NCBI GenBank assembly: GCA_038065735.1 | Contig: JBBTQK010000003.1 | Location: 64,704 to 128,703, forward strand | Source: Patescibacteria group bacterium | GTDB lineage: Bacteria; Patescibacteriota; Gracilibacteria; UBA1369; LOWO2-01-FULL-3 | DNA: 64,000 bases | Reading direction: 5' to 3' | Part shown: positions 21,150 through 62,351 of the stretch, in pieces | Numbering within the stretch: position 1 is the first letter of the stretch | How the letters are laid out: every line of letters starts with the position of its first letter | The notes under the pieces: generated by a model | Databases searched by the model: none | What the model saw: the letters and a program-made list of their open reading frames with translations, nothing else | What the model was told of the DNA's origin: nothing | Position numbers and translations under genes: made by a program

Positions 21150-21548
21150 TTAACTCTTTTTTGAGAAATCTCTTCTGCCAGCGATTAATAGGCCTAGAGT
21201 TGTCAGGGTTAGAATAAGGCTAATTAGAAATTCTTGGCTGAGGATTTGTTTGCCGTAGTTAGCCAAAAGCATAGCGAACAACACAAGTGGAATAATGGTA
21301 AAGATTAGCCCTGTAATGAATGACCAACGTTTTAGTTTTATGAGATAGTACCCGATTATTGTGCTGAGTACACCCTCGATTATGCTAATGGTGTAAAGCG
21401 TCTCCTCAATTCCAGAAAGCAATTCTTCCGGATTAACAGGTTTGCCCATTTCGACAACTAAATTTATGGTTCCGCTAATTAGCATAAGCAAACCACTAAC
21501 TAAAAGAATGAGTGCGGCGATTTTGATGGCAGCGGATGGAGTTTTCAT
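21150..21548 (-). CDS. hypothetical small membrane protein (about 4 TM segments)
   Basis: Hydrophobic ORF. I prefer the start at the ATG giving MKTPSAAIKIAALILL (21548), which avoids overlap with the divergent msrB start. The ORF track extends to 21593. Confidence 0.55.
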   Translation of the reverse strand: MKTPSAAIKIAALILLVSGLLMLISGTINLVVEMGKPVNPEELLSGIEETLYTISIIEGVLSTIIGYYLIKLKRWSFITGLIFTIIPLVLFAMLLANYGKQILSQEFLISLILTLTTLGLLIAGRRDFSKKS

Positions 21549-21587
21549 AAATTTTGTTAAATTTGAGAATAAAGTTATACTGATTTT

Positions 21588-21950
21588 ATGCAATTAAATG
21601 ATTTAACACCAGAGGAAGAGCGGGTAATTGTTGGGAAGGGGACTGAAGGGGCTTTTACTGGTGAATATACAGATACTTTTAGAGATGGTGTGTATGTTTG
21701 TCGACGTTGTGATGCGCCGCTTTATACTTCGGATAGTAAATTTCATTCGGGATGTGGCTGGCCGAGTTTTGATCAGGAAATTCCTGGGGCAGTTAAGAAT
21801 ACTACGGATGCGGATGGCAGGCGTACAGAGATTACTTGTATGAATTGTGGCGGGCATCTCGGGCATGTTTTTACGGGAGAATCTTTTACGGAAAAAAATG
21901 TGCGACACTGCGTGAATTCAATTTCTTTAAAATTTATTCCTAAAAAATAA
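21588..21950 (+). CDS. msrB: peptide-methionine (R)-S-oxide reductase
   Basis: [16 protein letters not shown] and CGGHLGHVF motifs. Confidence 0.93.
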
Positions 21951-21951
21951 T

Positions 21952-22479
21952 ATGGAAACTGTAGTTTTAGGTGGAGGCTGTTTTTGGTGTACGGAAGCGA
22001 TTTTTCAGCAGTTGAGGGGAGTTGTGAAGGTGACTTCAGGATATGCCGGTGGAGAATTTAAAAATCCCGGATATTATGATTTGGCAATGGGTAGAGCTGA
22101 TCAGGCAGAAGTGATTAAAGTAGAATTTGATCCTGCTGTGATTACGTTGCGAGATTTGTTGGATGTATTTTTTCACACACATAATCCGACTACGGTTAAT
22201 CAACAGGGTGCGGATAAGGGACCGGCTTATCGCTCGGTAATTCTTTATACTAGTCCTGAGCAAAAGGGGATTGCGGAGAATTTGATTGCAGAATTGGGGC
22301 GGTCAGGAGAATTTGGAAATCCGATTGTGACTGATGTGGAGCCTTTGGGAGAATTTTATGAAGCGGAAGAGGAACACCAAAGTTATTATGAACGGAATTC
22401 GTACCTGCCTTATTGCGAAGTCGTGATTTCACCGAAGCTGGCTAAGTTGCGGGAGAAATATAGGGAGAAGTTGAAGTAG
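21952..22479 (+). CDS. msrA: peptide-methionine (S)-S-oxide reductase
   Basis: GGGCFWCTEA active-site motif. Starts 1 nt after msrB. Confidence 0.93.
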   Translation: METVVLGGGCFWCTEAIFQQLRGVVKVTSGYAGGEFKNPGYYDLAMGRADQAEVIKVEFDPAVITLRDLLDVFFHTHNPTTVNQQGADKGPAYRSVILYTSPEQKGIAENLIAELGRSGEFGNPIVTDVEPLGEFYEAEEEHQSYYERNSYLPYCEVVISPKLAKLREKYREKLK

Positions 22480-22487
22480 GGATTGGG

Positions 22488-22805
22488 TTAAACCGAGATT
22501 CCTAGTGCACGATTTTGCCTTTGTTCGAGTGAGTGAAGGATCTCATCTATCTGCTCATCTGTTAGTGAGCCTTCTTGAAGTCGTAAATGGATTTCTTGTC
22601 GGCATAAACCAGCTTTAGAAAGACCGCCATGGGGTAATTCTTGAAGAGTTGTTAGGTGGAGTGTTTCTCCGCTGTAGCCACTTACAAAAAGATGTCTTCC
22701 CATTCCTTGACTCAATCTGATCAATTCTTGATCCGTCAGTCTTTGTGGATTAAATCCTGCTGAAACGCTGCCTTTTAGTGCTTGGTAATCTATTCTGTTT
22801 TCCAT
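22488..22805 (-). CDS. hypothetical protein (105 aa)
   Basis: ORF only, no motif recognised. Gln/Leu/Gly-rich composition, atypical for this genome. Confidence 0.45.
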   Translation of the reverse strand: MENRIDYQALKGSVSAGFNPQRLTDQELIRLSQGMGRHLFVSGYSGETLHLTTLQELPHGGLSKAGLCRQEIHLRLQEGSLTDEQIDEILHSLEQRQNRALGISV

Positions 22806-22896
22806 ATTACGGACTTATTTAGAAGTTTTGATTCTAGCCTTAGGGCAGTAAGTAAGTCAATGATTTGCTTTGGTATATTCTTTGTTGTACTTTGTG

Positions 22897-22916
22897 TTTT
22901 CGGACCGGTCCGAAAA
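22897..22916. repeat. 20-nt perfect palindrome TTTTCGGACCGGTCCGAAAA, copy 1
   Basis: Read directly from the sequence. A second copy lies at 23745-23763. It shares the TTTCGG/CCGAAA arms with the REP-like element hairpins. Confidence 0.85.
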
Positions 22917-23044
22917 CAGCGTTTTACTTCCCTAAGAAGGTGGTCCAATTTAGTTTTGGTCTATTTGTAGCCGTTAATGGCGTTTTCGGTGTTGTTTTTG
23001 GGGAAGTCATTAAGAATACTAAATTGTGCGTTTGGCAAATTTTA

Positions 23045-23428
23045 TTAGTAGCTAAATACTACTTCCTGCAATTTTTCTTTGAAGGTGATTTCAAAGTTGT
23101 CAAAAATACCTTTTCTGCCTAAGAGGCATTCTACTTCTTCTTTACAGATGAGAACTGGGATTTTGAGTCTGATTTTATCAATAGTCAGGTATAGATCTGT
23201 TTGTTTTGCTTCTATTGATTCCAGATTTGCGGTTTCTATTTTTGTCTTATGATCTGGTAAAGATTTGTAAGTTAAACCTAAAATTGTTCCTGCTGATTGA
23301 GGAATCATGGTGTAATCGGCTCCACTATCAATTAGAAATTCAAAATAACGGCTGGAGTTTTGATCTTTGCCGAGTTTGGCCATTAACATTGGCCTATTTC
23401 TGATGTACGTAAAGGTAAGGTGCGACAT
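23045..23428 (-). CDS. retropepsin-like (clan AA) aspartic protease
   Basis: FLIDSGADYTMIP contains the D-S/T-G-A catalytic signature in a ~115-127-aa protein. An alternative start at MLMAKLG (23389) would remove the overlap with the upstream ORF. Confidence 0.7.
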   Translation of the reverse strand: MSHLTFTYIRNRPMLMAKLGKDQNSSRYFEFLIDSGADYTMIPQSAGTILGLTYKSLPDHKTKIETANLESIEAKQTDLYLTIDKIRLKIPVLICKEEVECLLGRKGIFDNFEITFKEKLQEVVFSY

Positions 23429-23612
23429 ATTTTGGGTGAATGCGGGATACTAGAAATTCTTTTTTTTCTATGTCCGGCATTACTTTTTTGGCTTCATGAA
23501 GTGCTATTACGCAATCCGTGCCAATTCCCAAAACTTTTCCGTTGAAAGAAATGATGGTTTTACCAACATGCTTTTCTTCCATTCTGGCTGATATGTTTGG
23601 AGCTTTTATCAT
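23394..23612 (-). CDS. small partner protein of the aspartic protease (resembles the DUF5678 family)
   Basis: 72-aa ORF translationally coupled to the protease gene. The GKTIISFNGKVLGIGTD...EAKK pattern resembles small proteins I recall being paired with clan AA proteases. Family assignment is from memory only. Confidence 0.45.
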   Translation of the reverse strand: MIKAPNISARMEEKHVGKTIISFNGKVLGIGTDCVIALHEAKKVMPDIEKKEFLVSRIHPKYVAPYLYVHQK

Positions 23613-35333: not shown

Positions 35334-36005
35334 ATGTTTACAAATCTTGGTGTCAATTATTCAAAGGGAGTTTTATTTTCAAAGCGTTTTGTATATCAAA
35401 CTGGTCCAGAAAAACATGATCCTGTAAAAACTGAAACTTCTAATGTTCCTAAAGAGGATTCCAAGCTTAGCGAATCTAAGGAAGCAGAGTTATCTCAGAA
35501 GGAAAGAGTAATTAAGTTACTTTCAGCTGAGATGAGGAAGAACATGGAAAGTTTTGCCAAGGAAACTAAATCAAAAGCTTTTATCGGCACTGCAGTAGAG
35601 TATACGTTACAAAATACTGCGGAGGTTGAGCTATTGATGTATTTTGCGAAATCGCCTGTTCTTATTCATAGGTTAAATGTTGCGTGGAATTCCAATAAAG
35701 ACATTCCTGTTGTGATGAGGGATGAGATTAATGAAATTTTAATTACTGATAAAGACGACTTCGTACGTTTTTATCTTGCTGGTGGAAAGTATACTTCTGA
35801 AAAGCACTTAAGGGTACTCGCTGGTGATGTCTCTTCAGATTTAAGAGCCACTGTTGCCTCAAATAAAAATACTCCAGCTGATGTATTAGCAATCTTACTA
35901 AATGATAAAGTTGAATTAGTTAGAAGTAATGCGGCATTGAGGATAAAAGCCAATGAAGAGGTCAATGTAAAAAAGGGATCGGATATCCTAAATCAAATGC
36001 TCTAA
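35334..36005 (+). CDS. hypothetical protein with leucine-rich-repeat-variant/HEAT-like C-terminal repeats
   Basis: DLRATVASNKNTPADVLAILLNDKVELVRSNAA resembles LRV repeats. Start chosen at ATG 35334, downstream of the promoter; the ORF-track start at 35172 lies upstream of it. Confidence 0.55.
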   Translation: MFTNLGVNYSKGVLFSKRFVYQTGPEKHDPVKTETSNVPKEDSKLSESKEAELSQKERVIKLLSAEMRKNMESFAKETKSKAFIGTAVEYTLQNTAEVELLMYFAKSPVLIHRLNVAWNSNKDIPVVMRDEINEILITDKDDFVRFYLAGGKYTSEKHLRVLAGDVSSDLRATVASNKNTPADVLAILLNDKVELVRSNAALRIKANEEVNVKKGSDILNQML

Positions 36006-37953: not shown

Positions 37954-38745
37954 CTATTGATTATCTTCGTTTTTTTCTTCGTCCTCAACAGGCTTAGATT
38001 CTACGTTAGTGTAATATTTATCGTAATATTTTTTAGCACGTTTTAATTCTTCAATAACTTTTTCGTCTTCGCCGGCAAATAAAAATTTCGGTAGAATTTT
38101 CATGGAAATCGCGCCTGGATATCTTTCCTGCTTTAGCTTAGTTAAAAAGCTTTCTAAAGGCATAATTCCTTCATGTGGAGGAGCATATTTTTTGCCGTTG
38201 AATAGGTTTGAAAGATGTACGTGAACAAGGTATTTTTTTAGTGAAGTATATGCACGCATTAAGTCTTTGCGTTGTTCTCCGATTCTCGCAGTATCTAAAG
38301 AAACGTGTTTGAATTCTTTTAAATCTTGAGCTGAGCCCATGGCGTGTTCCGGGATAAATCCTAGAATTGTACCTGATGGAGCGTTTTCGAGAGCGATGGA
38401 CATGAATTCTTTTTCACGTAATTTTGGAATTTCTTTTTTTAACCAGCTGGCTAGTTTGAAATCCAAAAGTTTTGGTGGTTGTAAGATAACGATTTTTGCG
38501 CCTATGGCCCTAGCCATTTCTACAATTTCCTGAATATGTTTTGGAGAAAGTTCTTTAGGTGCAGAAACAGCACGAACTGGCAGATCGTATTCTTTTACAA
38601 GCTTTTTGATGTAATCCGTGTTCCAGGTATCAAAATTTCCATAATCAACAGTCAGATCTAATCCATCGTAGCCGGCTGCTTTTGCAAGTTCAAAGATTCT
38701 GTTTAATCCGTAACCTCTAAGGGAATCAGTGCAAAGTAGAATCAT
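37954..38745 (-). CDS. sugar phosphate isomerase/epimerase-like TIM-barrel protein (xylose isomerase-like fold)
   Basis: The N-terminal pattern (ELAKAAGYDGLDL, ...AIGAKIVILQPP, VHLSN) resembles the AP_endonuc_2/xylose isomerase-like family. Assigned by eye only. Confidence 0.5.
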   Translation of the reverse strand: MILLCTDSLRGYGLNRIFELAKAAGYDGLDLTVDYGNFDTWNTDYIKKLVKEYDLPVRAVSAPKELSPKHIQEIVEMARAIGAKIVILQPPKLLDFKLASWLKKEIPKLREKEFMSIALENAPSGTILGFIPEHAMGSAQDLKEFKHVSLDTARIGEQRKDLMRAYTSLKKYLVHVHLSNLFNGKKYAPPHEGIMPLESFLTKLKQERYPGAISMKILPKFLFAGEDEKVIEELKRAKKYYDKYYTNVESKPVEDEEKNEDNQ

Positions 38746-38888: not shown

Positions 38889-38914
38889 TTATGTGTATAT
38901 TTAACACAAATTTT

Positions 38915-39427
38915 ATGAGACAAGAACCAACTTTGAGTTTTCGTCAGATCCTGAGCGGTAACTTAGACCATAGTGATATTTCGTATGATGAATTAAACCC
39001 TGTTGTGAGGGGAGAAGTTGATAGATTAGTATCGACAGCAGTTGGTGTGGAAAATTTAGATGAACTTCTTGGTGACAGAGATGTAGACGTGGTTATTAAT
39101 CAGGTAGTTGCTGGTATGTCGGTAGCTTTGGGATTCAAAGATAGCCGTGATGATCACGGGCACGGTGGTCATGGTAGTACTCATGGTCATGATGATCATG
39201 GAGATGCCTGGCACGATACTCATGAACCACATGGCCATGGTGATACTCATGGGCATGGTGATACTCATGGGCATGGTGATACTCACGGGCATGGTGATAC
39301 TCATGGGCATGGTGATACTCATGGTCATGATGATACTCACGGGCATGGTTCACATGGACATGAAAATGAGGGAGTTGGATATGTTCCTACTATCAGAAAT
39401 TGGAAAAACAATCCTAGTGTTCAGTAA
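38915..39427 (+). CDS. acidic histidine-rich protein with tandem HGHGDT repeats (candidate metal-binding protein)
   Basis: Start at ATG 38915 (MRQEPTL), downstream of the promoter. The C-terminal half reads HGHGGHGSTHGHDDHGDAWHDTHEP(HGHGDT)x5... Confidence 0.7.
   Translation: MRQEPTLSFRQILSGNLDHSDISYDELNPVVRGEVDRLVSTAVGVENLDELLGDRDVDVVINQVVAGMSVALGFKDSRDDHGHGGHGSTHGHDDHGDAWHDTHEPHGHGDTHGHGDTHGHGDTHGHGDTHGHGDTHGHDDTHGHGSHGHENEGVGYVPTIRNWKNNPSVQ
39230..39337 (+). repeat. six tandem copies of an 18-bp unit (CATGGGCATGGTGATACT) inside the His-rich gene
   Basis: Read directly. Units start at 39230, 39248, 39266, 39284, 39302 and 39320, with 0-3 substitutions each. Confidence 0.9.
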
Positions 39428-39450
39428 AATTTAGCTGAAATTTCTTATAC

Positions 39451-39545
39451 TTAGGCCTTTGGTTCGATTTTTATTCATCCGTACATGTATGGCTGTATTC
39501 GAGCTTGGAAGTCAGTGGTGAGTACTGATCGGTATCCTTTTGATG
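39451..39545 (-). pseudogene. degenerate duplicate of the serS 3-prime end
   Basis: Hand alignment of 39451-39508 with 41525-41582 gives 45 of 58 identical without gaps, and weaker similarity continues further. The minus-strand reading ...QPYMYG*IKIEPKA* compares with serS ...QPYMGGRTKIEPKA* and has an in-frame stop. Confidence 0.6.
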
Positions 39546-39546
39546 A

Positions 39547-39575
39547 TTAACAAATTGGGTATTTTGTGGTATAAT
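39547..39575 (+). promoter_or_regulatory. candidate promoter for the 39597/39742 operon
   Basis: TTAACA (39547-39552), 17 nt, TATAAT (39570-39575), with an extended -10 TG at 39567-39568. Confidence 0.55.
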
Positions 39576-39596
39576 TATGGGATTTGATAAATAAAA

Positions 39597-39737
39597 ATGA
39601 AAAAGATTACTGAGGCGCAAAAAACAGAGATACTAAAGGCAATTTTCAAGCGGACTAATATTTACTATGAAAAGAAAATAGTTGGTAAGGATTTTAGTGA
39701 TGCTGAGGAACTTTTAGAAAGTTTAAATAACGTCTAA
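39597..39737 (+). CDS. hypothetical small protein (46 aa)
   Basis: Not in the ORF track. Hand translation gives MKKITEAQKTEILKAIFKRTNIYYEKKIVGKDFSDAEELLESLNNV. The stop lies 4 nt before the 39742 ATG. Confidence 0.4.
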   Translation: MKKITEAQKTEILKAIFKRTNIYYEKKIVGKDFSDAEELLESLNNV

Positions 39738-39741
39738 ATTT

Positions 39742-41520
39742 ATGGAATTTAATGAAATTGAATCACGTGATGGAGGTTTAGATAAATACAGAAGTGATCT
39801 GAAAAATTTATTTGAATCAAATGAAGATGGGAATGATGTTTTATTAAGAAATCTTAAGGACATATTAACCGGATTTGATATTCTTAAAAAACAGAGTTTG
39901 TATCAGGCTACAGTTAAAGAAGTCGAAGATTTTAATGAAAAAAATGGACCGATTTTAACTGTTCAGGAAGTTTTTAGTTGGATTTTGGATAGTGAATCAC
40001 TGGCCGTAGAGGAAATTACAAAAATTACCTACCTAGAAAATAGTAGAGAAAAAGAAAAAGAAACTGCGGAATTTAAATTTGATGAGTCAATTCCTAATGT
40101 GAAAAATGTTGAGCAATTGGGATCCTTGAAGGATTCCTTTGCTAGTTTTTTAAAAATTGTGAAAGGTTCGAAATCAACTAAAATAAATGTTACTGCATTA
40201 AGTGAGTTTTTTTCTTTTATTACTGATACGTGTGAAATTCATCCAAGCTTAGAGTCTATGTTTATAAATATCGTTAATGAAAGAACTAAAGATTTACAAG
40301 AATCTAAAGGAAAAGAAGATTTAGTTGTAAAGGTATTGATTTCCTCTCTTAAAAATCGTGCGAATAGAAGTTCATTTAGTAGCTCAGGTTTCCAATTTGA
40401 TGAAGAAACAATAAAGACCAGAGTTTTAACAGACTATAAAAGAGAACAAGAAGCAAAAACTTCGGAAGATAAAGAATTAATGTCGAACGTCGATGGAAGA
40501 ATTAAAGGCGTAACGGTTGTTTTAGGTATGAAGGTGCGTGATGGATATACAGATATAGCAGGAGAGTATTACAATACGATTTTTGATCTTATTGAAGCTA
40601 AAAAAGGAGAAAAAGATTTTATTCTTAAATGTGTTTACGTTGAAAAGAGTGAGAAAGAAAATTTTACAAAGTATATGAGGGCAAGAAATGTTGATTTTTC
40701 AAAAATAGTGTTTTTGAATGCTGGAGATGTGGAATATAGCCATAGGTATGATATTTGGGCGAGAGATTCGGCTGTGAGACGTAAGGATGGAGTTATTATT
40801 GAACCATTTAATAATTATGCCGATGGTGTAACTGCTGCTTACGCTAATTTGATTCCAATAGAAGGAACTGATATTCAGCAGTCTGAACTTGTTTTTGAGG
40901 GAGGCAATATGAGGGCAACGGATAAGTATCTTTTTATTGGTGTTGATGATATTTACAAAACTATGGGTAATCCGAAACTTAAACTTGCAAGTCAAGAAAT
41001 GGTAATTAGCCTTTTTGAAAAGCAATTTAACAAAAAAGTGATTGTTTTAGGTGACTCTGAGGGTGGACAGGATGTTTTTCACATAGACATGTGTATAACT
41101 CCACTGAATGATAAAGATATTCTTGTGGCTGAACCAATCGATGGGAGTATGTACGCTCCATTTATGATTAATATAAGTCAGCAACTTGCAGAGCAGGGGT
41201 TTAATGTAATTAAGGTTCCGTATTTTAGTCATGGAAGCTTTCATGCAACATATAACAACGCTCTTCTTGAAAATTATAAAGATGAAAGTGGTAAGGAAGT
41301 AAAAAAGGTTTATCTTCCCCAGTATTATGCTGGCTCAGAGGGTTCTCCAGTTTATACTTATGGAGCTGGTGGTGGTACTGTTTTAGATTTAAATAAAATG
41401 AATAAAGCTGCAGTAGAGATTTATAGGTCTCAGGGTTTTGAAGTAGTGCCGATCAATGTTTCTGTCTCCGTAATCAGGCGTTCGGGATCCTTAAATTGTC
41501 TGACTTTTGAAGATAGATAA
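39742..41520 (+). CDS. 592-aa protein with an unknown N-terminal region and a C-terminal guanidino-group-modifying-enzyme-like domain (agmatine/arginine deiminase or amidinotransferase superfamily)
   Basis: Ordered motifs IWARDS, FEGGN, FHIDMC and a C-terminal GSLNCLT. They resemble the W-x-R-D, EGG, H-x-D and G-G-x-x-C-x-T blocks of that superfamily as I recall them. Confidence 0.55.
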   Translation: MEFNEIESRDGGLDKYRSDLKNLFESNEDGNDVLLRNLKDILTGFDILKKQSLYQATVKEVEDFNEKNGPILTVQEVFSWILDSESLAVEEITKITYLENSREKEKETAEFKFDESIPNVKNVEQLGSLKDSFASFLKIVKGSKSTKINVTALSEFFSFITDTCEIHPSLESMFINIVNERTKDLQESKGKEDLVVKVLISSLKNRANRSSFSSSGFQFDEETIKTRVLTDYKREQEAKTSEDKELMSNVDGRIKGVTVVLGMKVRDGYTDIAGEYYNTIFDLIEAKKGEKDFILKCVYVEKSEKENFTKYMRARNVDFSKIVFLNAGDVEYSHRYDIWARDSAVRRKDGVIIEPFNNYADGVTAAYANLIPIEGTDIQQSELVFEGGNMRATDKYLFIGVDDIYKTMGNPKLKLASQEMVISLFEKQFNKKVIVLGDSEGGQDVFHIDMCITPLNDKDILVAEPIDGSMYAPFMINISQQLAEQGFNVIKVPYFSHGSFHATYNNALLENYKDESGKEVKKVYLPQYYAGSEGSPVYTYGAGGGTVLDLNKMNKAAVEIYRSQGFEVVPINVSVSVIRRSGSLNCLTFEDR

Positions 41521-41524
41521 CGGC

Positions 41525-42817
41525 TTAGGCCTTTGGCTCGATTTTAGTTCTGCCGCCCATGTATGGTTGTAATACAGTTGGGATTGTGACTGAACCGTCG
41601 GCGTTTTGGTAATTCTCAAGGATGGCGACTAAAGTGCGGCCAACAGCGCAGGCAGTGCCGTTTAAAGTGTGGATATATTCGTTTTCACCTTTGGAATTTT
41701 TGTGTCTGATTTTGCTGCGACGTGCCTGAAAGTCAGTGCAGTTTGAGCAAGAAGTTAATTCTCTGAATTTATTTTGAGTTGGTATCCAGATTTCCAAATC
41801 GTATTTTTTGGCTGCTGGAGCGCCGGTGTCGCCTGTACAAATCGCCATTACTTGATAGTGGAATCCAAGATCCTGCATGATTTCTTCTTCGGTTGCACGG
41901 ATTAATTCGTGTTCTTCCAGGGATTTATCTGGGTCGCAAAAACTAAACATTTCTATCTTGTCGAATTGGTGTACGCGGATGATTCCGGCAGTATCTTTGC
42001 CGTAAGAACCGGCTTCACGACGGAAACAAGTAGAAAAACCGGCGTAACGGATGGGTAATTTTTCAGTTTCCAGGATTTCGTTGTAGTGAATCATTGTTAG
42101 AGGGACTTCTGAAGTACCAACCAAATATAAATCGTCGTTTTCTGGATTTTCGGCAGTTTTTGGATTAACTTGATAGATTTCACCGCGGTCTGCTGGGAAA
42201 AATCCGGTTGCAAACATGGCTTCTTCTTTGACCAAAACCGGTGGGATAACAGGTGAGAAGCCTTTAGAATTTAATTTGTGTAGAATATGTTGGACTAAAG
42301 CGAATTCGAGCAGAGCGGCTTCGTTTTTTAAGTAGTAAAAACGAGCACCGGAGGTGCGAGTTCCTCTTTCTATGTCAATAATATCGAGAGATTTACCAAG
42401 TTCGATGTGATCTTTTGGTGTGAAATCAAATTCTGGTTTTTTGCCCCAAGTTTTAATCACCTGATTTCCGCTGTCATCTGGACCGTCTGGAACTGAATCA
42501 AGTGGGGGATTTGGTACTTGCTGAGCCAATTCATCAATCTGTTTTTCTAGAATTTCAAGCTCTGGTTCCAAAGTTTTGATTTCTTCTTTAAGTTTTTTCA
42601 TTTCTTCAAAAAGCTTGGCCTTTTCTTCTGGAGAAGCCTTGCCTGCATTTTTGCTTTGTTCGTTTTGCTGTGCGCGTAAAGTTTCAATTTTCAACAATTT
42701 CTCTTTTCTTTCTTCATAAATAGCTAGAATTTTGTCTATATCTGGACCAAAACCCTTACGTTTAATACCATTTTTAATTTTTTCAGGATTCTCAATAATG
42801 AATTTAATGTCGAGCAT
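41525..42817 (-). CDS. serS: seryl-tRNA synthetase
   Basis: N-terminal coiled-coil arm plus class II motifs (FRREAGS..., GTSEVPL, NGTACAVGRTLVAILENYQ). Confidence 0.97.
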   Translation of the reverse strand: MLDIKFIIENPEKIKNGIKRKGFGPDIDKILAIYEERKEKLLKIETLRAQQNEQSKNAGKASPEEKAKLFEEMKKLKEEIKTLEPELEILEKQIDELAQQVPNPPLDSVPDGPDDSGNQVIKTWGKKPEFDFTPKDHIELGKSLDIIDIERGTRTSGARFYYLKNEAALLEFALVQHILHKLNSKGFSPVIPPVLVKEEAMFATGFFPADRGEIYQVNPKTAENPENDDLYLVGTSEVPLTMIHYNEILETEKLPIRYAGFSTCFRREAGSYGKDTAGIIRVHQFDKIEMFSFCDPDKSLEEHELIRATEEEIMQDLGFHYQVMAICTGDTGAPAAKKYDLEIWIPTQNKFRELTSCSNCTDFQARRSKIRHKNSKGENEYIHTLNGTACAVGRTLVAILENYQNADGSVTIPTVLQPYMGGRTKIEPKA

Positions 42818-42909: not shown

Positions 42910-43338
42910 TTAGCTGGTAATCATTTGTAGATATTCTCCTGGTAACAGAATTTTTGTTGGTAAATTTGCCTTTTCAAGCTTTGTGGTTTTAAAGTCTTTT
43001 TTATCTAAAGTAATCAAAAAATCGGCTTTCTGATTGATGCTGCTAATGAGTATTGGGAGGTCTTTTTCAATGATTAGATCCTGATATTTTATTTTTAAAT
43101 CTGTTGAGTGAGCTTCTTTATCAATCTGATTAAGCAAGCTGACTAGTTTGTAGAATTCCGGTAGAAATTCTACTCCAACTTTTCTCTCAATATTTAATTT
43201 TGCTTCTTTAATGGCATATAGACTTGATACTAATATATGTTTTTTATTTTTAGCTAGTTCAAAAATGGCTCTGGAACCTCCAGTTTTTGAATAAGTAGCA
43301 GCAAAAAAGATGTTGGCGTCTAAAAATAGTTTGTACAT
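42910..43338 (-). CDS. PIN-domain toxin (VapC-like)
   Basis: The N-terminal FLDANIFF and C-terminal ITLDKKDF acidic residues are typical of PIN nucleases. Lies 5 nt downstream of the antitoxin gene. Confidence 0.75.
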   Translation of the reverse strand: MYKLFLDANIFFAATYSKTGGSRAIFELAKNKKHILVSSLYAIKEAKLNIERKVGVEFLPEFYKLVSLLNQIDKEAHSTDLKIKYQDLIIEKDLPILISSINQKADFLITLDKKDFKTTKLEKANLPTKILLPGEYLQMITS

Positions 43339-43343
43339 CTGAG

Positions 43344-43601
43344 TTAATTTTTGATAAGTTTTGCTAATTTTTCTGCCGTTTTTTTGTCCAGTTTATCTTC
43401 TTTTAACCAGATTTGAATATCTTCGTCTGAATAAATTTCAGTGGTATCTGGCTTGTAGTCTATTTTGATAAAAGAAATGCCGTTACTTAGCAGTTTTACT
43501 TCTAATAAACTATTTTCATCAATATTTAATTTTTGCCTGAATTCTACTGGAATAGTGACCATGCCTTTTGATTGAGGTTTTACTATTTTAGTTGGAGACA
43601 T
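43344..43601 (-). CDS. AbrB/SpoVT-type antitoxin
   Basis: The GMVTIPVEFRQKLNI swapped-hairpin motif. 85 aa, immediately upstream of the PIN gene. Confidence 0.7.
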   Translation of the reverse strand: MSPTKIVKPQSKGMVTIPVEFRQKLNIDENSLLEVKLLSNGISFIKIDYKPDTTEIYSDEDIQIWLKEDKLDKKTAEKLAKLIKN

Positions 43602-58684: not shown

Positions 58685-58751
58685 GGAAGTTTTGGATTAG
58701 GGGGTTGATTTTATTGTAGGCAATTTTGAGGGTGATTAAAAGCTCTTTTTA

Positions 58752-58760
58752 TGGTATAAT
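58752..58760 (+). promoter_or_regulatory. extended -10 promoter (TGgTATAAT) for 58785 gene
   Basis: Lies 25 nt upstream of the TTG start given by the ORF track. Confidence 0.5.
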
Positions 58761-58784
58761 TAAGGGATTTTTTAATGCATTTGT

Positions 58785-61700
58785 TTGACTATATTTAAGA
58801 ATACAAAAAATTGGCATAGAGGATTAATTTTTGATCGGTTGGATGCGCCTCAAATTTCTTCGTCAGAAAATCCTCAAAAAAGGGCTGAAAAAATTCTGAA
58901 AGAAAAGAGTGATTATGCTGAGAATTCTATAGATGAGCGCATGGATTTAGATGTGGGGGATCAGTTAGTGGATTCAGAAGTCCAGGATGCAGTGGATAAA
59001 ATTGCTAGTGTCAGAAAATTGATTGATAAGAAAAGGGCTACGTATTATGAAGTTGTTCGTAATATGTATTACAAAACTGTAAAGGAGAATGCTAGCGATA
59101 TAGTTAATGCGGAATATGCTGAAAAAGTGGCTTTGGCCTATAAAGATTTAGTGGATTCATATAGTGATGTTATTAAAATTCAGGAGGAATCTAAAGATCC
59201 TGAATTCGTTAGGCAATTGGCTGGAGATTTGCTGAAAGTTGAAGTTCCATTGATAAAGACTGTTACTGTTAATAAAACTCGTGATGTTCCAGTAATGGAT
59301 TTAATGGAATTGAGCGACATAAATAATGTTCAAAAGGCAGCAAACAGAAAACAAGCTTATGTAGAAACTAAAATTCAGATCGTTAAAAAAACGTATGAAA
59401 TTCCAAAAAATGCTGAGAAATATAATATTCTAAAAAATGGAGCAGAGATGGCGGTACTTGGCTCAAGGGCTGATTTATTTTTAACGACTAGAGATCAAGC
59501 TTATGAAAAATTCTATCATCAGAATATTGAGCAGAGAAGTAAAAACATGCATGCTAATGGAAAAGTAGCGATCAAAAGAGCTGAGGAAGCCGATGGGAAG
59601 GGTCTTTCAAAAGTTCAAAATGTTATCCGATTGCAGGATAATGCTGAAAAATATCAGGCAATTGATGGGTATACGACCATGCTTGCTCAAAAGCAGTTGG
59701 AAATTGAAAAAATGAGAGTTGCTGATCCAGTGAAAGCCTGTAGTTTGGCTAATGAATTTAGCCTATTGGTGGGTAATTTAAAGAAAAATATGGTTGGTTC
59801 ATCGATTGATAAAAAGATTGACCAAAGATTTTTTGGATTGCCCGTGGATACTCTTGAAATCTCTGTTGGATTTTTTGAAGATTTAAAGAAAACATCTCCA
59901 AAAGTCTTTGAACGTTTTTCCCAAATCATAGATATTTATCACAACAAAGCTGTTGGGTTGGCACAGGATATTATTCAAAGAGATCCAGAAATTATCCAGT
60001 TTAAGTGCGACTTGAGTGGGTTTATTAAGAGTGGAGAAGGGCTATTCAAAACTTTCGAAAATCTCAATAAAGAAATAGCAAGAGGGCAAAGTCCATCTCA
60101 ACCATACATGGAAAAAATCCATGAGGAGTTGGAGATTTATATCAATTCTCCATACTTTAGAGACATCAAAAAGAATTGGCCAAGGCAAAAATATTTGTCT
60201 TATTTATCCCAAGATTTAAGTGCTATACCGGGTGCAAAAAAGATGATTGAAACTTGGGAAAATGCTTATAAAGCTTTAGATCAATATAAGGCACAAATTC
60301 TGCAAGTAAGCGCCCAGATAAATGATATGGGTGGCGATAATGTTGACTGGACTGGCTTTTTAAAAGATGCGGGTAAATTTGCACTGGTTATTGCTGCCTG
60401 TGTTGCAACTGGAGGTGCGATGACGGCCATTGTCGCCAATACTTTTACTACTTTGTCTTCAATAGCTGCTGTAAGTACTTTGGGAAATGCAAGTTTGGAT
60501 TATTTAGATGGTAATGGAAATGCTTTTGATCCTAATGCTTTGATGGAAGGGTACATGAATAGCCTTGGTGTGTCCTGGGCAAGTGGTGTTTTGGCGAAAC
60601 CGATTGGTGGGCTTTGGGGAAAATATGCTAGAAAACTTAATGATAAAATGGCGTCTTCTGATATTGGTTGGATTAAGACGTTTGCTGAACGAGGGTATGT
60701 TAATAAAATTTTTGCAAATGGAGAGGGAAGTTTTGGTACTAGGTTTACGTCTGAAATGCTTGAGGAATCATTGGAGGATGGGATGAAAAGGCTTGGTGAG
60801 GCTGTTGCGCCAAAACATCCTTTACTTGGTGCAATATTCCAAATTATTGGTACGTCTGCGAGAGTTGCTAGAGGGGTTTTTAATAGAGGACCATTTAAAA
60901 TTGGTGAAATATATGGACAGGTCACGGATAGTGGAGTGAAGCTCGAATATACTAATTTAAATGAGATAAAAGCTTTTTTGTTGGCAAGGGGTCTTGATGC
61001 GGAATCAATTTCCAGGTTGGAGCAAGAGGGTGGACTCGTGATTGAAAAAGATGGAATTAGGTTGGAGGTTGAGAATGTTGAAGTTGTTTCCACTGATAAG
61101 CTTGATGCTGGGTTTATTAATGGACTGAAATCTAAATACGTATGGGTTAGTCCAGTTAGGGATTGTGGTTTAATTTATGTTCAGAGAAGAGATGGTTCAT
61201 ATACTTTTGTTAAGAAAAATGGGCAGGAAATAAATGCAGTTAAATATAAACAAGTGGTGACGTGGTTTGAGGATGGCTACGCTGGAGTGCAAAGAGAAGA
61301 CGGTTCCTATACTTTTATAGATCGTCAGGGCAGAGAAATTAACGATAAGAAATATAAGGATATAGATGGATTTACAGGTTTCAGCAAGCATGATGGTTAT
61401 GCCGTTGTAATGAGAGAAGATGGTTCGTATACTTTTTTGAATCTTCGAGGTAGGGAAATTAATGATAAAAAATATGCAAGGACGATTTATGGATTTCGTC
61501 CATTTAGTGATGGTTATGTACTGGTTCGTAGAGAGGATGGTTCGTATACCATGATAGATGAAAATGGGAATGAGTTATGTTCGGTAAAATATAAGTTTAT
61601 ACAGGGTTCCTTTGAGTTTGGATACGTTGGTGTGCAGAGGCCGGATGGTTCGTGGAATTTTATTGATAAAAAGGGTAAGGAAATTAATTCAGTTAGGTAT

Positions 61701-62351
61701 GGAGCGGCTGGTCATTTTGATGAATCGGGCTATGCGTGGGTTGAGAGGCTTGATGGATGGTCGACATTTATTGACAAAAGAGGTAATGAAATAAGCAAGC
61801 TTGGTTATCATGATGTTGGAGGATTTTATTATGGTTATAGTTCGGCCCAAAGGCCTGATACTTCATGGACCTTTATTGATAAAAAAGGTAGAGAAATAAC
61901 TAGTAAGGGTTATAAAACGGCAATGCCCTTTGAAGCTGATGGGTATGCAAAAGTCGTAAGGCTGGATGGTAGTAAAGCTAAAATCGATAAAAACGGTGTG
62001 GAAAGTGATGCAAAATGGGATGATAAATGGAATGATATTGGCAAAGTAAAACCTGCTGCAGCGACTCAGTTTGAGCCGGTACCGATTTTTGATAATAGTC
62101 AGAATCAATATCGGGATTTTAGGGAAAAGTTTCCTGGTGAATTAGGGTCAGCTATTTTTATGAAATTTGGAAAATTAAGCTGGAGTGATCATGCTCCTAA
62201 TGTTTTGATTGTTGATAGTTTAAATTCTGGAGATATTTCCATCGGCCAATTTTTATCTGAACGTGGGTATAAAGTTGAGGTTGGTAGTAATGGGGTTGAA
62301 TTTGAAGTTAATGGTCAGAAATTTATAATTATTCTGAAAAATAGTTATTAG
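58785..62351 (+). CDS. giant membrane protein (1188 aa) with about nine C-terminal WG-type beta repeats
   Basis: Hydrophobic segments near FALVIAACVATGGAMTAIVANTF. A repeating ~38-aa unit (DGSYTFIDRQGREINDKKYKDI..F..GYA.V), encoded at ~61150-62000, resembles the WG-containing (KWG-like) repeat family. The start is uncertain (TTG 58785 or ATG 58941). Confidence 0.75.
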   Translation: MTIFKNTKNWHRGLIFDRLDAPQISSSENPQKRAEKILKEKSDYAENSIDERMDLDVGDQLVDSEVQDAVDKIASVRKLIDKKRATYYEVVRNMYYKTVKENASDIVNAEYAEKVALAYKDLVDSYSDVIKIQEESKDPEFVRQLAGDLLKVEVPLIKTVTVNKTRDVPVMDLMELSDINNVQKAANRKQAYVETKIQIVKKTYEIPKNAEKYNILKNGAEMAVLGSRADLFLTTRDQAYEKFYHQNIEQRSKNMHANGKVAIKRAEEADGKGLSKVQNVIRLQDNAEKYQAIDGYTTMLAQKQLEIEKMRVADPVKACSLANEFSLLVGNLKKNMVGSSIDKKIDQRFFGLPVDTLEISVGFFEDLKKTSPKVFERFSQIIDIYHNKAVGLAQDIIQRDPEIIQFKCDLSGFIKSGEGLFKTFENLNKEIARGQSPSQPYMEKIHEELEIYINSPYFRDIKKNWPRQKYLSYLSQDLSAIPGAKKMIETWENAYKALDQYKAQILQVSAQINDMGGDNVDWTGFLKDAGKFALVIAACVATGGAMTAIVANTFTTLSSIAAVSTLGNASLDYLDGNGNAFDPNALMEGYMNSLGVSWASGVLAKPIGGLWGKYARKLNDKMASSDIGWIKTFAERGYVNKIFANGEGSFGTRFTSEMLEESLEDGMKRLGEAVAPKHPLLGAIFQIIGTSARVARGVFNRGPFKIGEIYGQVTDSGVKLEYTNLNEIKAFLLARGLDAESISRLEQEGGLVIEKDGIRLEVENVEVVSTDKLDAGFINGLKSKYVWVSPVRDCGLIYVQRRDGSYTFVKKNGQEINAVKYKQVVTWFEDGYAGVQREDGSYTFIDRQGREINDKKYKDIDGFTGFSKHDGYAVVMREDGSYTFLNLRGREINDKKYARTIYGFRPFSDGYVLVRREDGSYTMIDENGNELCSVKYKFIQGSFEFGYVGVQRPDGSWNFIDKKGKEINSVRYGAAGHFDESGYAWVERLDGWSTFIDKRGNEISKLGYHDVGGFYYGYSSAQRPDTSWTFIDKKGREITSKGYKTAMPFEADGYAKVVRLDGSKAKIDKNGVESDAKWDDKWNDIGKVKPAAATQFEPVPIFDNSQNQYRDFREKFPGELGSAIFMKFGKLSWSDHAPNVLIVDSLNSGDISIGQFLSERGYKVEVGSNGVEFEVNGQKFIIILKNSY

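What the first reader, a model, noticed from the sequence alone, without database searches (positions are those of the whole stretch)
39428..41620. Degenerate duplicate of the serS 3-prime end brackets a 2.07-kb insert
The last codons of serS plus the stop (41525 onward) are repeated at 39451 onward. By hand alignment 45 of the first 58 positions are identical with no gaps, and weaker gapped similarity runs for ~35 nt more. The upstream copy has an in-frame stop (reading ...QPYMYG*IKIEPKA*), so it is a dead remnant. The two direct repeats enclose exactly one transcription unit: promoter 39547-39575, a 46-aa ORF and the 592-aa gene. This is the footprint expected when an element integrates into the 3-prime end of a gene and supplies a replacement end, as tRNA- or gene-end-targeting islands do. 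No integrase is present, so the mobilising function is lost or encoded elsewhere. The remnant is fused to a partial REP-like element.
Basis: seen in the sequence. Interest (0 to 1): 0.66.

Follow-up and report, generated by a model that had tools for sequence, protein, structure and literature searches.

The report
Decayed serS-end duplicate flanking inserted cassette
In a groundwater Peregrinibacteria genome, a 2-kb two-gene cassette (a tiny protein plus an uncharacterised agmatine/arginine-deiminase-like enzyme) sits at the very end of the seryl-tRNA synthetase gene, bracketed by the real gene end and a decayed 58-60-nt copy of it; this is a real but fairly ordinary insertion scar whose mobilising machinery is nowhere in sight.

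Summary
Window 39450-39509 is a direct, ungapped, 78%-identical copy of 41524-41583, which is the last 19 codons plus stop of serS. Its score is about 15 sd above background, and the copy carries an in-frame TGA. Between the two copies lie only a strong promoter-like site, a 46-aa ORF and a 592-aa ORF.

More than 20 related genomes keep the order EFP-serS-AP-endonuclease-ABC-FtsX. Several have 64-154 bp between serS and the endonuclease gene. Others carry unrelated cargo there (HicA/RHH, MNT/HEPN-like, orphans). None has the cassette or a serS remnant. The 2.07-kb unit is therefore a lineage-specific insertion into a variable slot.

The cassette is a conserved two-gene module found in five different contexts. 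Two of these abut tRNA 3' ends and one sits next to an IS66 fragment. The large protein is an N-terminal helical domain fused to an agmatine-deiminase/PPAD-like pentein domain with its catalytic Asp/His/Cys intact.

The whole window holds no integrase or transposase. No empty site of the same species was found, and no other cassette copy has flanking repeats.

Site-specific integration leaving a CIME-like relic is the best reading (about 0.45). Homology-facilitated illegitimate recombination between two alleles of the slot is nearly as good (about 0.35). The "REP-like" claim is unsupported.

The parts
41525..42817 (-). serS (serine--tRNA ligase), intact, 430 aa. This is the target gene, and its 3' end is duplicated.
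   Evidence: Pfam tRNA-synt_2b and Seryl_tRNA_N. TIGR00414 matched over its full length, E 1.3e-150.
41524..41583 (-). Repeat copy R1: the functional last 19 codons of serS, the stop codon and 1 nt beyond it.
   Evidence: the repeat finder family D3. Alignments.
39450..39509 (-). Repeat copy R2: a decayed duplicate of the serS 3' end. It reads ...QPYMYG*IKIEPKA* and carries an in-frame TGA and a Gly-to-Tyr change.
   Evidence: 78% identity over 60 nt with no gaps. Translation. Score about 15 sd above the window background.
39450..39471 (.). Best-conserved stretch of the repeat: 21 of 22 identical to 41524-41545, with a 13-nt exact run CTTAGGCCTTTGG that spans the stop codon. If integration was site-specific, this is the candidate crossover core.
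   Evidence: 21/22 here against 25/37 further in, Fisher p = 0.02 on a post hoc split. The 13-mer occurs only at these two places in the window.
39510..39546 (.). Spacer between the remnant and the promoter. It may be a further, heavily decayed piece of serS, but the evidence is marginal.
   Evidence: The gapped alignment is only at the 5% level against shuffles and other genomic pieces.
39547..39575 (+). Sigma-70-like promoter of the cassette: TTAACA, 17-nt spacer, TATAAT, with TG upstream of the -10.
   Evidence: Best promoter-like match in 38.7-42.9 kb, 11 of 12. This is a consensus match only. The total number of such sites in the region is no higher than in shuffles.
39597..39737 (+). 46-aa ORF, the conserved small partner. 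It ends 4 nt before the large ORF and carries the motif K-x-EIL-x2-hh-KRT-x3-YEK.
   Evidence: tblastn match to the ORF upstream of the homologue in L002-L005. Aligned homologues lie upstream of the large gene in L036, L002, L006 and L001.
39742..41520 (+). 592-aa ORF: an N-terminal helical domain of about 240 aa, then a C-terminal agmatine-deiminase/PPAD-like pentein domain. Asp342, His447/Asp449 and Cys586 are conserved. Its stop codon is 4 nt from the serS stop, and the two genes converge.
   Evidence: No Pfam, NCBIfam, PADLOC or PDB sequence hit. Distant homologues hit PF04371. A family profile hits agmatine deiminases 6b2w/6b10/1xkn, E 1.5e-6 to 5e-6. Foldseek top 29 hits are agmatine deiminases, PPAD and related deiminases, best E 4.7e-9. 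Invariant residues.
38891..39427 (+). His-rich 178-aa orphan ORF with seven 18-nt tandem repeats. It lies outside the bracketed insert, between the remnant and the conserved AP-endonuclease gene. Its stop is 23 nt from the remnant's stop.
   Evidence: ORF. Repeats D1/D2. No homologue in any relative or in the 5.8-billion-protein search.
37954..38745 (-). AP_endonuc_2 / xylose-isomerase-like TIM-barrel gene. It is the conserved far flank of the variable slot, followed by ABC and FtsX genes.
   Evidence: Pfam PF01261. Order serS-APendo-ABC-FtsX in L009-L011, L014, L016-L019, L022, L024, L033-L035.

Best explanation
A small accessory unit (promoter, 46-aa gene, 592-aa deiminase-like gene) entered this Peregrinibacteria lineage at the extreme 3' end of serS. 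The event duplicated the last 58-60 nt of the gene. The copy joined to the gene body keeps serS intact. The displaced copy now lies on the far side of the cassette and has decayed.

The most likely mechanism is site-specific (att-type) integration of an element whose attachment site mimicked the serS end. The crossover would fall in the 13-22-nt near-identical stretch that spans the stop codon. The recombinase and any other element genes were then lost or always acted in trans, leaving a CIME-like relic that is now fixed and probably immobile.

Shown: the repeat, its decay, the insertion relative to relatives, the modular cassette, and the absence of a recombinase. Inferred: the recombination mechanism. 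My confidence that this is an insertion with a duplicated gene end is about 0.9. The figure given for this field refers to the site-specific mechanism.
For: - The repeat is real and includes the stop codon of the target gene, and serS stays full-length.
- The repeat length falls in the 8-60 bp range reported for tyrosine-recombinase elements that target 3' ends of housekeeping and tRNA genes. Decayed, integrase-less derivatives (CIMEs) are described (PMC5704250). e14 in icd, with its icdC pseudogene, is a direct precedent for an imperfect displaced gene end (PMC13626634).
- Relatives show an empty slot of 64-154 bp between serS and APendo in L014, L016, L017, L018, L024 and L034/35.
- Identity is highest at the stop-codon end, 21/22 against 25/37. 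A conserved crossover core flanked by diverged arms would look like this.
- The cassette is a portable module. The same gene pair occurs in five unrelated contexts: 9 bp from the 3' end of tRNA-Arg(CCT) in L002, 128 bp downstream of tRNA-Lys(CTT) in L036, and beside an IS66 fragment in L001.
- The cassette genes have low G+C, 30.5% and 33.0% against a mean of 37.7% (sd 3.1).
- Repeat divergence (d about 0.27) is well below the four-fold-site divergence of serS from the nearest relatives (d 0.88-1.67). The event therefore postdates the split from every sampled relative, which fits their lack of the cassette.
Against: - No integrase, transposase or relaxase is in the 2.07 kb or anywhere in the 64-kb window or about 10 kb beyond it.
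- No empty site, circular junction or polymorphism is seen. The other contigs carrying this serS are identical.
- serS is not a recurrent target. None of 22 relatives has a serS-end duplicate, including those with other cargo in the slot.
- The other cassette copies have no detectable flanking repeats, not even next to the tRNA genes.
- The identity gradient rests on a post hoc split of 59 positions.
- Both copies share the lineage-specific ending ...CCA AAG GCC TAA, seen in no relative. That is equally expected if both copies come from the same species.
- Two kilobases is very small for an integrative element.
Confidence: 0.45

Rival explanations
1. The scar was made by recombination between two alleles of a variable slot, with no recombinase involved. 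In this clade the interval between serS and the AP-endonuclease gene carries different cargo in different genomes. DNA from a close relative carrying one allele (serS-cassette, or serS-His178) recombined with a resident carrying the other. One end was anchored by homology in a conserved flank. The other end joined illegitimately, 58-60 nt inside the serS end. This is homology-facilitated illegitimate recombination, or Campbell-type single crossover of a circularised fragment. Both cargos were stacked and a serS-end fragment was left between them, where it then decayed.
For: - The slot is demonstrably variable: HicA plus RHH in L009-L011, MNT plus NTase_sub_bind in L019, a GATase-like 355-aa gene in L010, and orphans of 381 and 435 aa in L022 and L033.
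- The window stacks two unrelated lineage-specific cargos, the cassette and His178, exactly on either side of the remnant.
- Both repeat copies share the lineage-specific PKA* ending, as expected if both are native serS ends of one species.
- No recombinase is needed, and none is present.
- Other cassette copies lack repeats.
- The mechanism itself (homology-facilitated illegitimate recombination during natural transformation) is from my own knowledge of the literature, not from a tool result.
Against: - Ordinary exchange by homology in both flanks would leave no duplicate, so an additional illegitimate join is required.
- It does not explain why the first 22 nt are better conserved than the rest.
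- It pushes back, rather than explains, how the cassette first came to lie 4 nt from the serS stop.
- No donor allele (serS-cassette only, or serS-His178 only) has been sampled.
Confidence: 0.35
2. The duplication arose in place as a by-product of the insertion event itself. Examples are a long staggered break with fill-in repair, or replication slippage or template switching, when the cassette was captured at the serS end. There was no att site and no second allele. The two copies were identical at birth and one has since drifted.
For: - The two copies share the same lineage-specific ending.
- Their differences are spread over all three codon positions, 6/4/4. This looks like neutral decay of one copy rather than two ends that were each kept functional.
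Against: - Target duplications of about 60 nt are far longer than those of known transposition mechanisms (my own knowledge).
- There are no terminal inverted repeats at the cassette ends.
- Uniform decay does not predict the 21/22 against 25/37 pattern.
- There is an abrupt fall to random identity beyond about 58-60 nt.
Confidence: 0.12
3. The similarity is chance, or it reflects convergence on a shared functional motif such as a terminator or a REP-type element, and is not a duplication.
For: None, beyond the short length of the match.
Against: - Score 54-56 against a background maximum of 28-29.
- The match stays in the serS reading frame and ends at the same stop codon.
- No terminator-like site lies in either copy. 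There is no Rfam hit. There are no other copies in the window.
Confidence: 0.02

Closest known systems
Integrative and mobilizable or conjugative elements that target the 3' end of housekeeping genes, and their decayed derivatives, the cis-mobilizable elements (CIMEs) (review PMC5704250)
   Same: Direct repeats flank the insert. [quoted passage not shown] The repeat length is within the reported 8-60 bp. The cargo is an accessory module. Like a CIME, the unit has no integration or transfer genes.
   Different: No recombinase is present here, and no cognate recombinase-bearing element is known for this site. The repeats are only 78% identical. The unit is only 2.07 kb. serS appears in no paper I found as a target: a search for serS, integration site, integrase and genomic island returned nothing. 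No recurrence in 22 relatives. The host is a CPR bacterium.
Cryptic prophage e14 (and phage 21) in the E. coli icd gene, with the displaced icdC C-terminal pseudogene (PMC13626634; Hill et al. 1989, cited there)
   Same: The element sits in the 3' end of a protein-coding housekeeping gene. The gene keeps a functional end. [quoted passage not shown]
   Different: e14 is about 15 kb, encodes its own integrase and excises on SOS induction. icdC differs from icd by only a few conservative changes. Here the displaced copy has a nonsense codon, and homology stops after about 19 codons.
Homology-facilitated illegitimate recombination during natural transformation (my own knowledge; not checked with the tools)
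   Same: Foreign cargo can be stacked next to a conserved anchor gene, and short duplications or deletions can be left at the non-homologous junction. No recombinase is needed.
   Different: It has been described experimentally in Acinetobacter and Streptococcus, not in CPR bacteria. No junction microhomology can be identified here because no parental allele is available.
Agmatine deiminase / Porphyromonas-type peptidyl-arginine deiminase family (PF04371; PDB 6b10, 1xkn, 5ak7, 2jer)
   Same: The C-terminal roughly 340 aa of the 592-aa protein has the same predicted fold and conserved catalytic Asp, His and Cys.
   Different: The protein does not reach any Pfam threshold. It has an extra helical N-terminal domain of about 240 aa and an obligate 46-aa partner gene. 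Sequence identity to solved structures is 11-15%. No carbamoylputrescine-pathway gene is adjacent. The substrate is unknown.

Membership tests
Site-specific integrative element at a gene 3' end (IME/ICE/prophage type) | [quoted passage not shown] | tested here: met
   39450-39509 against 41524-41583, 78% over 60 nt. serS is full-length against TIGR00414.
Site-specific integrative element at a gene 3' end (IME/ICE/prophage type) | Encodes a tyrosine or serine recombinase (integrase) | tested here: not met
   The insert holds only the 46-aa and 592-aa ORFs, with no recombinase domain. No integrase or transposase Pfam domain is on record across the window.
Site-specific integrative element at a gene 3' end (IME/ICE/prophage type) | An empty target site exists in related genomes | tested here: inconclusive
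   Relatives with 58-82% serS identity have serS next to APendo with 64-154 bp between them. No genome of the same species lacking the insert was found: the nearest relative is 82% identical, and the other contigs are identical to the window.
Site-specific integrative element at a gene 3' end (IME/ICE/prophage type) | The same attachment site is used repeatedly by related elements | tested here: not met
   No serS-end duplicate in 22 relatives. Homologous cassettes lie at other sites and have no repeats.
Site-specific integrative element at a gene 3' end (IME/ICE/prophage type) | Excision to a circular form, restoring attB | not testable with these tools
   This needs read-level metagenome data or an experiment.
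CIME (cis-mobilizable element) | Retains usable attL and attR but lacks integration and transfer genes | tested here: inconclusive
   It lacks the genes. The repeats survive, but only 21/22 in the best stretch and 78% overall. Whether a recombinase could still use them is unknown.
CIME (cis-mobilizable element) | A cognate integrase-bearing element uses the same att site | tested here: not met
   None was found in the window, in relatives' serS flanks or in viral contigs. The rest of this genome could not be searched.
Agmatine deiminase / PPAD family (PF04371, pentein/GME superfamily), for the 592-aa protein | Matches the family profile above the curated threshold | tested here: not met
   No Pfam family at E <= 0.01. 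Only distant homologues (P0160, P0185, P0224, P0230) reach PF04371.
Agmatine deiminase / PPAD family (PF04371, pentein/GME superfamily), for the 592-aa protein | Pentein fold | tested here: met
   The 29 Foldseek hits with E <= 1e-3 are agmatine deiminases, PPAD and related putative deiminases, probability 1.0, TM-score on the target 0.47-0.67. A family profile hits 6b2w/6b10/1xkn, E 1.5e-6 to 5e-6. Caveat: the model's mean pLDDT is only 65.9.
Agmatine deiminase / PPAD family (PF04371, pentein/GME superfamily), for the 592-aa protein | Catalytic Cys, His and Asp residues conserved | tested here: met
   D342, H447, D449 and C586 are invariant among the five closest sequences. Across 28 diverse members, D342, N506 and C586 are invariant and H447 nearly so. 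The assignment as catalytic residues is by motif analogy (W-x-R-D, F-H-I-D, G-S-L-N-C), not by a residue-level structural superposition.
Agmatine deiminase / PPAD family (PF04371, pentein/GME superfamily), for the 592-aa protein | Deiminase activity on agmatine or peptidyl-arginine | not testable with these tools
   This needs an enzyme assay.
Type II toxin-antitoxin or defence module, for the 46-aa and 592-aa pair | Matches known TA or defence families | tested here: not met
   No PADLOC, Pfam, NCBIfam or meaningful PHROG hit. Only the layout is TA-like: a small gene 3-4 nt upstream of the large one, kept in three of five contexts (100 nt apart in L006; not measured in L001).
REP-type intergenic repeat, claimed for the sequence fused to the remnant | Multiple dispersed copies, usually palindromic | tested here: not met
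   No second copy of 39428-39450 or 39498-39546 in the window. No inverted repeat there. Only 64 kb of the genome could be searched.

The most novel reading that the evidence does not exclude
The 46-aa plus 592-aa pair may be a self-contained selfish or conflict module, for example a toxin-antidote or defence pair whose effector is an arginine- or agmatine-deiminase-like enzyme. In Peregrinibacteria it would be moved in trans, without a recombinase of its own, into the 3' ends of translation-apparatus genes. It is seen here at serS, and in other genomes next to tRNA-Arg and tRNA-Lys. That would make it both a new kind of minimal cargo cassette and a new effector chemistry for such modules.
Probability: 0.1. 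Interest if true: 0.7.

Novelty: new member of a known kind. Interest (0 to 1): 0.35.

Why it matters
The scar is a datable, well-delimited example of gene gain in a Candidate Phyla Radiation bacterium. Little is documented about mobile DNA in this group: a full-text search for Peregrinibacteria, integrase and mobile genetic elements found nothing.

It marks the serS-AP-endonuclease interval as a variable slot across a clade. The slot collects toxin-antitoxin modules and orphan genes.

It also singles out an uncharacterised two-gene module: a tiny protein plus a helical-domain/deiminase-fold enzyme with an intact catalytic set. Only about ten representatives are close (E <= 1e-30) among 1.8 billion proteins. 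Its repeated appearance in different contexts suggests that it moves as a unit.

If excision or a cognate recombinase were found, serS would be a new attachment site. Otherwise this is an ordinary recombination scar.

Tried and rejected
- **Repeats around the other cassette copies.** I looked for flanking direct or inverted repeats in L001, L002, L006 and L036 and found nothing above shuffles. For tRNA 3'-half duplicates near the cassettes in L002 and L036, the only lead was a 12/14 match in L036, p = 0.16.
- **serS-end duplicates in relatives.** None in the flanks of 22 relatives.
- **An empty site in the same species.** The nearest serS is only 82% identical. The other contigs with this exact serS are base-for-base identical to the window. 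The His-rich neighbour, used as an alternative anchor, has no homologues at all.
- **Phage origin.** No relative of the large protein in IMG/VR contigs. Only non-significant PHROG hits.
- **Defence system.** No PADLOC hit.
- **Structured RNA.** No credible Rfam hit in 38.7-41.9 kb.
- **REP-like element.** No dispersed copies in the window.
- **Polarising the 13 repeat differences with outgroups.** Synonymous sites are saturated among relatives, so this was uninformative. The only clear result is that the three amino-acid changes, including the stop, are derived in the remnant.
- **The 4-nt spacing between the 592-aa gene and serS.** I rejected it as evidence of precise targeting. Convergent genes spaced -4 to +4 nt apart are the norm in this genome (coordinates).
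- **Gapped extension of the repeat beyond 58 nt.** Only marginal, about 5%.
- **Literature on deiminase-type toxins.** No mention in the polymorphic-toxin survey PMC3482391.

Full report
**1. What is in the sequence**

The window is a 37.5% G+C stretch of a Peregrinibacteria (Peribacteria) genome assembled from Hainich groundwater. It is base-for-base identical to ENA and Logan contigs, and its closest serS relatives are all labelled Peregrinibacteria, Peribacteria or Gracilibacteria.

serS lies on the minus strand at 41525-42817. It is intact, with Pfam tRNA-synt_2b and Seryl_tRNA_N and a full-length match to TIGR00414, E 1.3e-150.

Convergent with serS, and ending 4 nt from its stop codon, is a 592-aa ORF (39742-41520). 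It is preceded by a 46-aa ORF (39597-39737) and by the best sigma-70-like site of the region at 39547-39575: TTAACA, 17 nt, TATAAT, with an upstream TG, 11 of 12 matches.

Further left come a His-rich 178-aa ORF (38891-39427, plus strand) and an AP_endonuc_2 TIM-barrel gene (37954-38745, minus strand).

**2. The repeat is real**

- The repeat finder returns the pair independently: 39450-39509 against 41524-41583, 60 nt, 78% identity, spacing 2074.
- The local alignment scores 54-56. The same serS end against 832 other pieces of the window gives mean 15.4, sd 2.6, maximum 29. Against shuffles the maximum is 28.
- Read in the serS frame, the upstream copy gives ...QPYMYG*IKIEPKA*, against ...QPYMGGRTKIEPKA* for the real end. 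It is therefore a dead fragment.
- The differences fall on all three codon positions, 6/4/4.
- Homology ends 1 nt past the stop codon on one side. On the other side it falls to random identity beyond about 58-60 nt.
- Identity is uneven: 21/22 at the stop-codon end, including a 13-nt exact run CTTAGGCCTTTGG, against 25/37 further in. Fisher p = 0.02, on a post hoc split.
- Both copies end ...CCA AAG GCC TAA. The extra Ala codon occurs in none of 10 relatives examined, so both copies stem from this lineage's own kind of serS end.
- No REP-like repeat is attached. Apart from the serS end, nothing in 39400-39600 recurs in the window except a 22/24 promoter-like match at 58747-58770.

**3. The bracketed unit is an insertion into a variable slot**

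A protein-guided scan of one genome per species returned 24 serS loci, and three more came from exact-protein look-ups.

Relatives with 58-82% serS identity keep the order EFP-serS-AP endonuclease-ABC-FtsX. The interval between serS and the endonuclease gene varies:

| Interval content | Loci |
|---|---|
| Empty, 64-154 bp | L014, L016, L017, L018, L024, L034/L035 |
| HicA toxin plus RHH protein | L009-L011 |
| MNT-type nucleotidyltransferase plus NTase_sub_bind | L019 |
| GATase-like 355-aa gene | L010 |
| Orphans of 381 and 435 aa | L022, L033 |

None of these cargos is related to the window's genes. No relative has the 592-aa gene here, and none has a second copy of its own serS end.

The His-rich ORF is also lineage-specific, with no homologue anywhere. 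The window therefore stacks two private cargos, and the serS remnant sits exactly between them.

The repeat's divergence (d about 0.27) is far below the four-fold-site divergence of serS from its nearest relatives (d 0.88-1.67). The event is thus younger than the split from any sampled relative, but it is not recent.

**4. The cargo**

The 592-aa protein has no Pfam, NCBIfam, PADLOC or PDB sequence match. Only three close homologues (38-41% identity) turned up among 5.8 billion proteins. An exhaustive HMMER scan of 1.84 billion representatives found 203 relatives, 10 of them at E <= 1e-30. Most cover only the C-terminal 250-350 residues.

Several lines place the C-terminal domain in the deiminase fold:
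- Some distant relatives reach PF04371, the Porphyromonas-type peptidyl-arginine deiminase / agmatine deiminase family.
- A profile of 28 members hits the agmatine deiminases 6b2w/6b10 and 1xkn, E 1.5e-6 to 5e-6.
- An AlphaFold model (mean pLDDT 65.9) gives agmatine deiminases and PPAD as its top Foldseek matches, best E 4.7e-9, probability 1.0.
- Asp342 (W-x-R-D), His447/Asp449 (F-H-I-D-M) and Cys586 (G-S-L-N-C) are conserved.

The protein is therefore most likely an active guanidino-group hydrolase with an added helical N-terminal domain of about 240 aa. Its substrate is unknown.

The small ORF is a genuine partner. A homologue with the motif K-x-EIL-x2-hh-KRT-x3-YEK precedes the large gene in every other copy, and lies 3-4 nt from it in two of the three where the spacing was measured.

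The pair occurs in five unrelated contexts:
- the window;
- L001, next to an IS66-transposase fragment;
- L002-L005, between lexA and a tRNA-Arg(CCT) gene whose 3' end lies 9 bp from the large gene's stop;
- L006;
- L036, 128 bp downstream of tRNA-Lys(CTT).

It therefore behaves as a portable module. Its G+C (30.5% and 33.0%) is among the lowest in the window, alongside the PIN/MazE pair. No relative of it is found in viral contigs.

**5. Mechanism**

The layout is gene body, functional end, cargo, displaced dead end. This is the classical scar of elements that integrate into 3' ends of housekeeping or tRNA genes through recombination between 8-60-bp repeats. Integrase-less decayed derivatives (CIMEs) are known (PMC5704250). 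e14 in icd, with its icdC pseudogene, is a direct precedent (PMC13626634).

Three things favour this reading: the better-conserved 22 nt across the stop codon, the tRNA neighbours of two other cassette copies, and the IS66 neighbour of a third.

Against it:
- no recombinase lies in the insert or anywhere in the window;
- no polymorphism or empty site is seen in the same population;
- serS is not used as a target in any relative;
- the other cassette copies have no flanking repeats.

One rival explains the same scar without a recombinase. Two alleles of this variable slot, one with the cassette and one with the His-rich gene, recombine with one homologous and one illegitimate junction. The cargos are stacked and a serS-end fragment is left between them. 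The shared lineage-specific PKA* ending and the exact position of the remnant between two private cargos fit this well. The identity gradient does not.

I put site-specific integration at about 0.45, allele recombination at about 0.35, duplication in place at about 0.12, and chance at about 0.02.

The 4-nt spacing to serS is not diagnostic. Convergent genes in this genome are routinely spaced -4 to +4 nt apart (coordinates).

**6. Verdict**

This is a new member of a known kind of scar. It differs in having an unreported target gene, an under-studied phylum, and an uncharacterised but clearly modular deiminase-fold cassette as cargo. Interest is moderate to low unless excision, a cognate recombinase or a conflict function of the cassette is demonstrated.

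Noticed in passing
window 42910-43601 (minus strand): A PIN-domain gene and a MazE/AbrB-type antitoxin gene sit between the EFP-side genes and serS. No relative shows a match to them in this position. They have the lowest G+C in the window, 29-30%. serS is therefore flanked on both sides by lineage-specific accessory modules.
   Followed up: partly
window 38891-39427; repeats 39166-39367: The His-rich 178-aa ORF contains seven 18-nt tandem units encoding H-G-H-G-D-T. It has no homologue in the relatives or in the 5.8-billion-protein search. It could be a metal-binding orphan or not a real gene.
   Followed up: partly
L002 11870-11944; L036 5536-5611; L001 1-488: Homologous cassettes elsewhere abut the 3' end of tRNA-Arg(CCT) (9 bp away, convergent), lie 128 bp downstream of tRNA-Lys(CTT), or sit beside an IS66 transposase fragment. 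No flanking repeats were found. Two of four next to a tRNA gene is suggestive: my rough estimate is p about 0.03, assuming about 45 tRNA genes per 1100 genes.
   Followed up: partly
serS-APendo interval in L009-L011, L019, L010, L022, L033: The interval downstream of serS is a clade-wide variable slot. It holds HicA plus an RHH protein, MNT plus an NTase_sub_bind (HEPN-like) protein, a GATase/Peptidase_C26-like 355-aa gene, or orphan genes of 381 and 435 aa.
   Followed up: partly
window 39562-39585 and 58747-58770: The cassette's extended -10 region matches 22/24 nt with the sequence just upstream of the 1188-aa ORF (58785-62351). This is probably a shared strong-promoter motif, not a mobile repeat.
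   Followed up: no
window 41518-41527: The stop codons of the 592-aa gene and serS are 4 nt apart, with no terminator-like site between them. Transcription from the strong cassette promoter would run antisense into serS. Tight or overlapping convergent gene ends are common across this window, for example at 36002/36005, 34063/34066 and 49700/49703.
   Followed up: no
window about 21150-23600: Between rpsG (S7) and fusA (EF-G), about 2.8 kb holds six small genes. They include MsrA, MsrB and a 114-aa ORF with weak retropepsin-like (Asp_protease_2) hits. This is an unusual interruption of the str operon.
   Followed up: no
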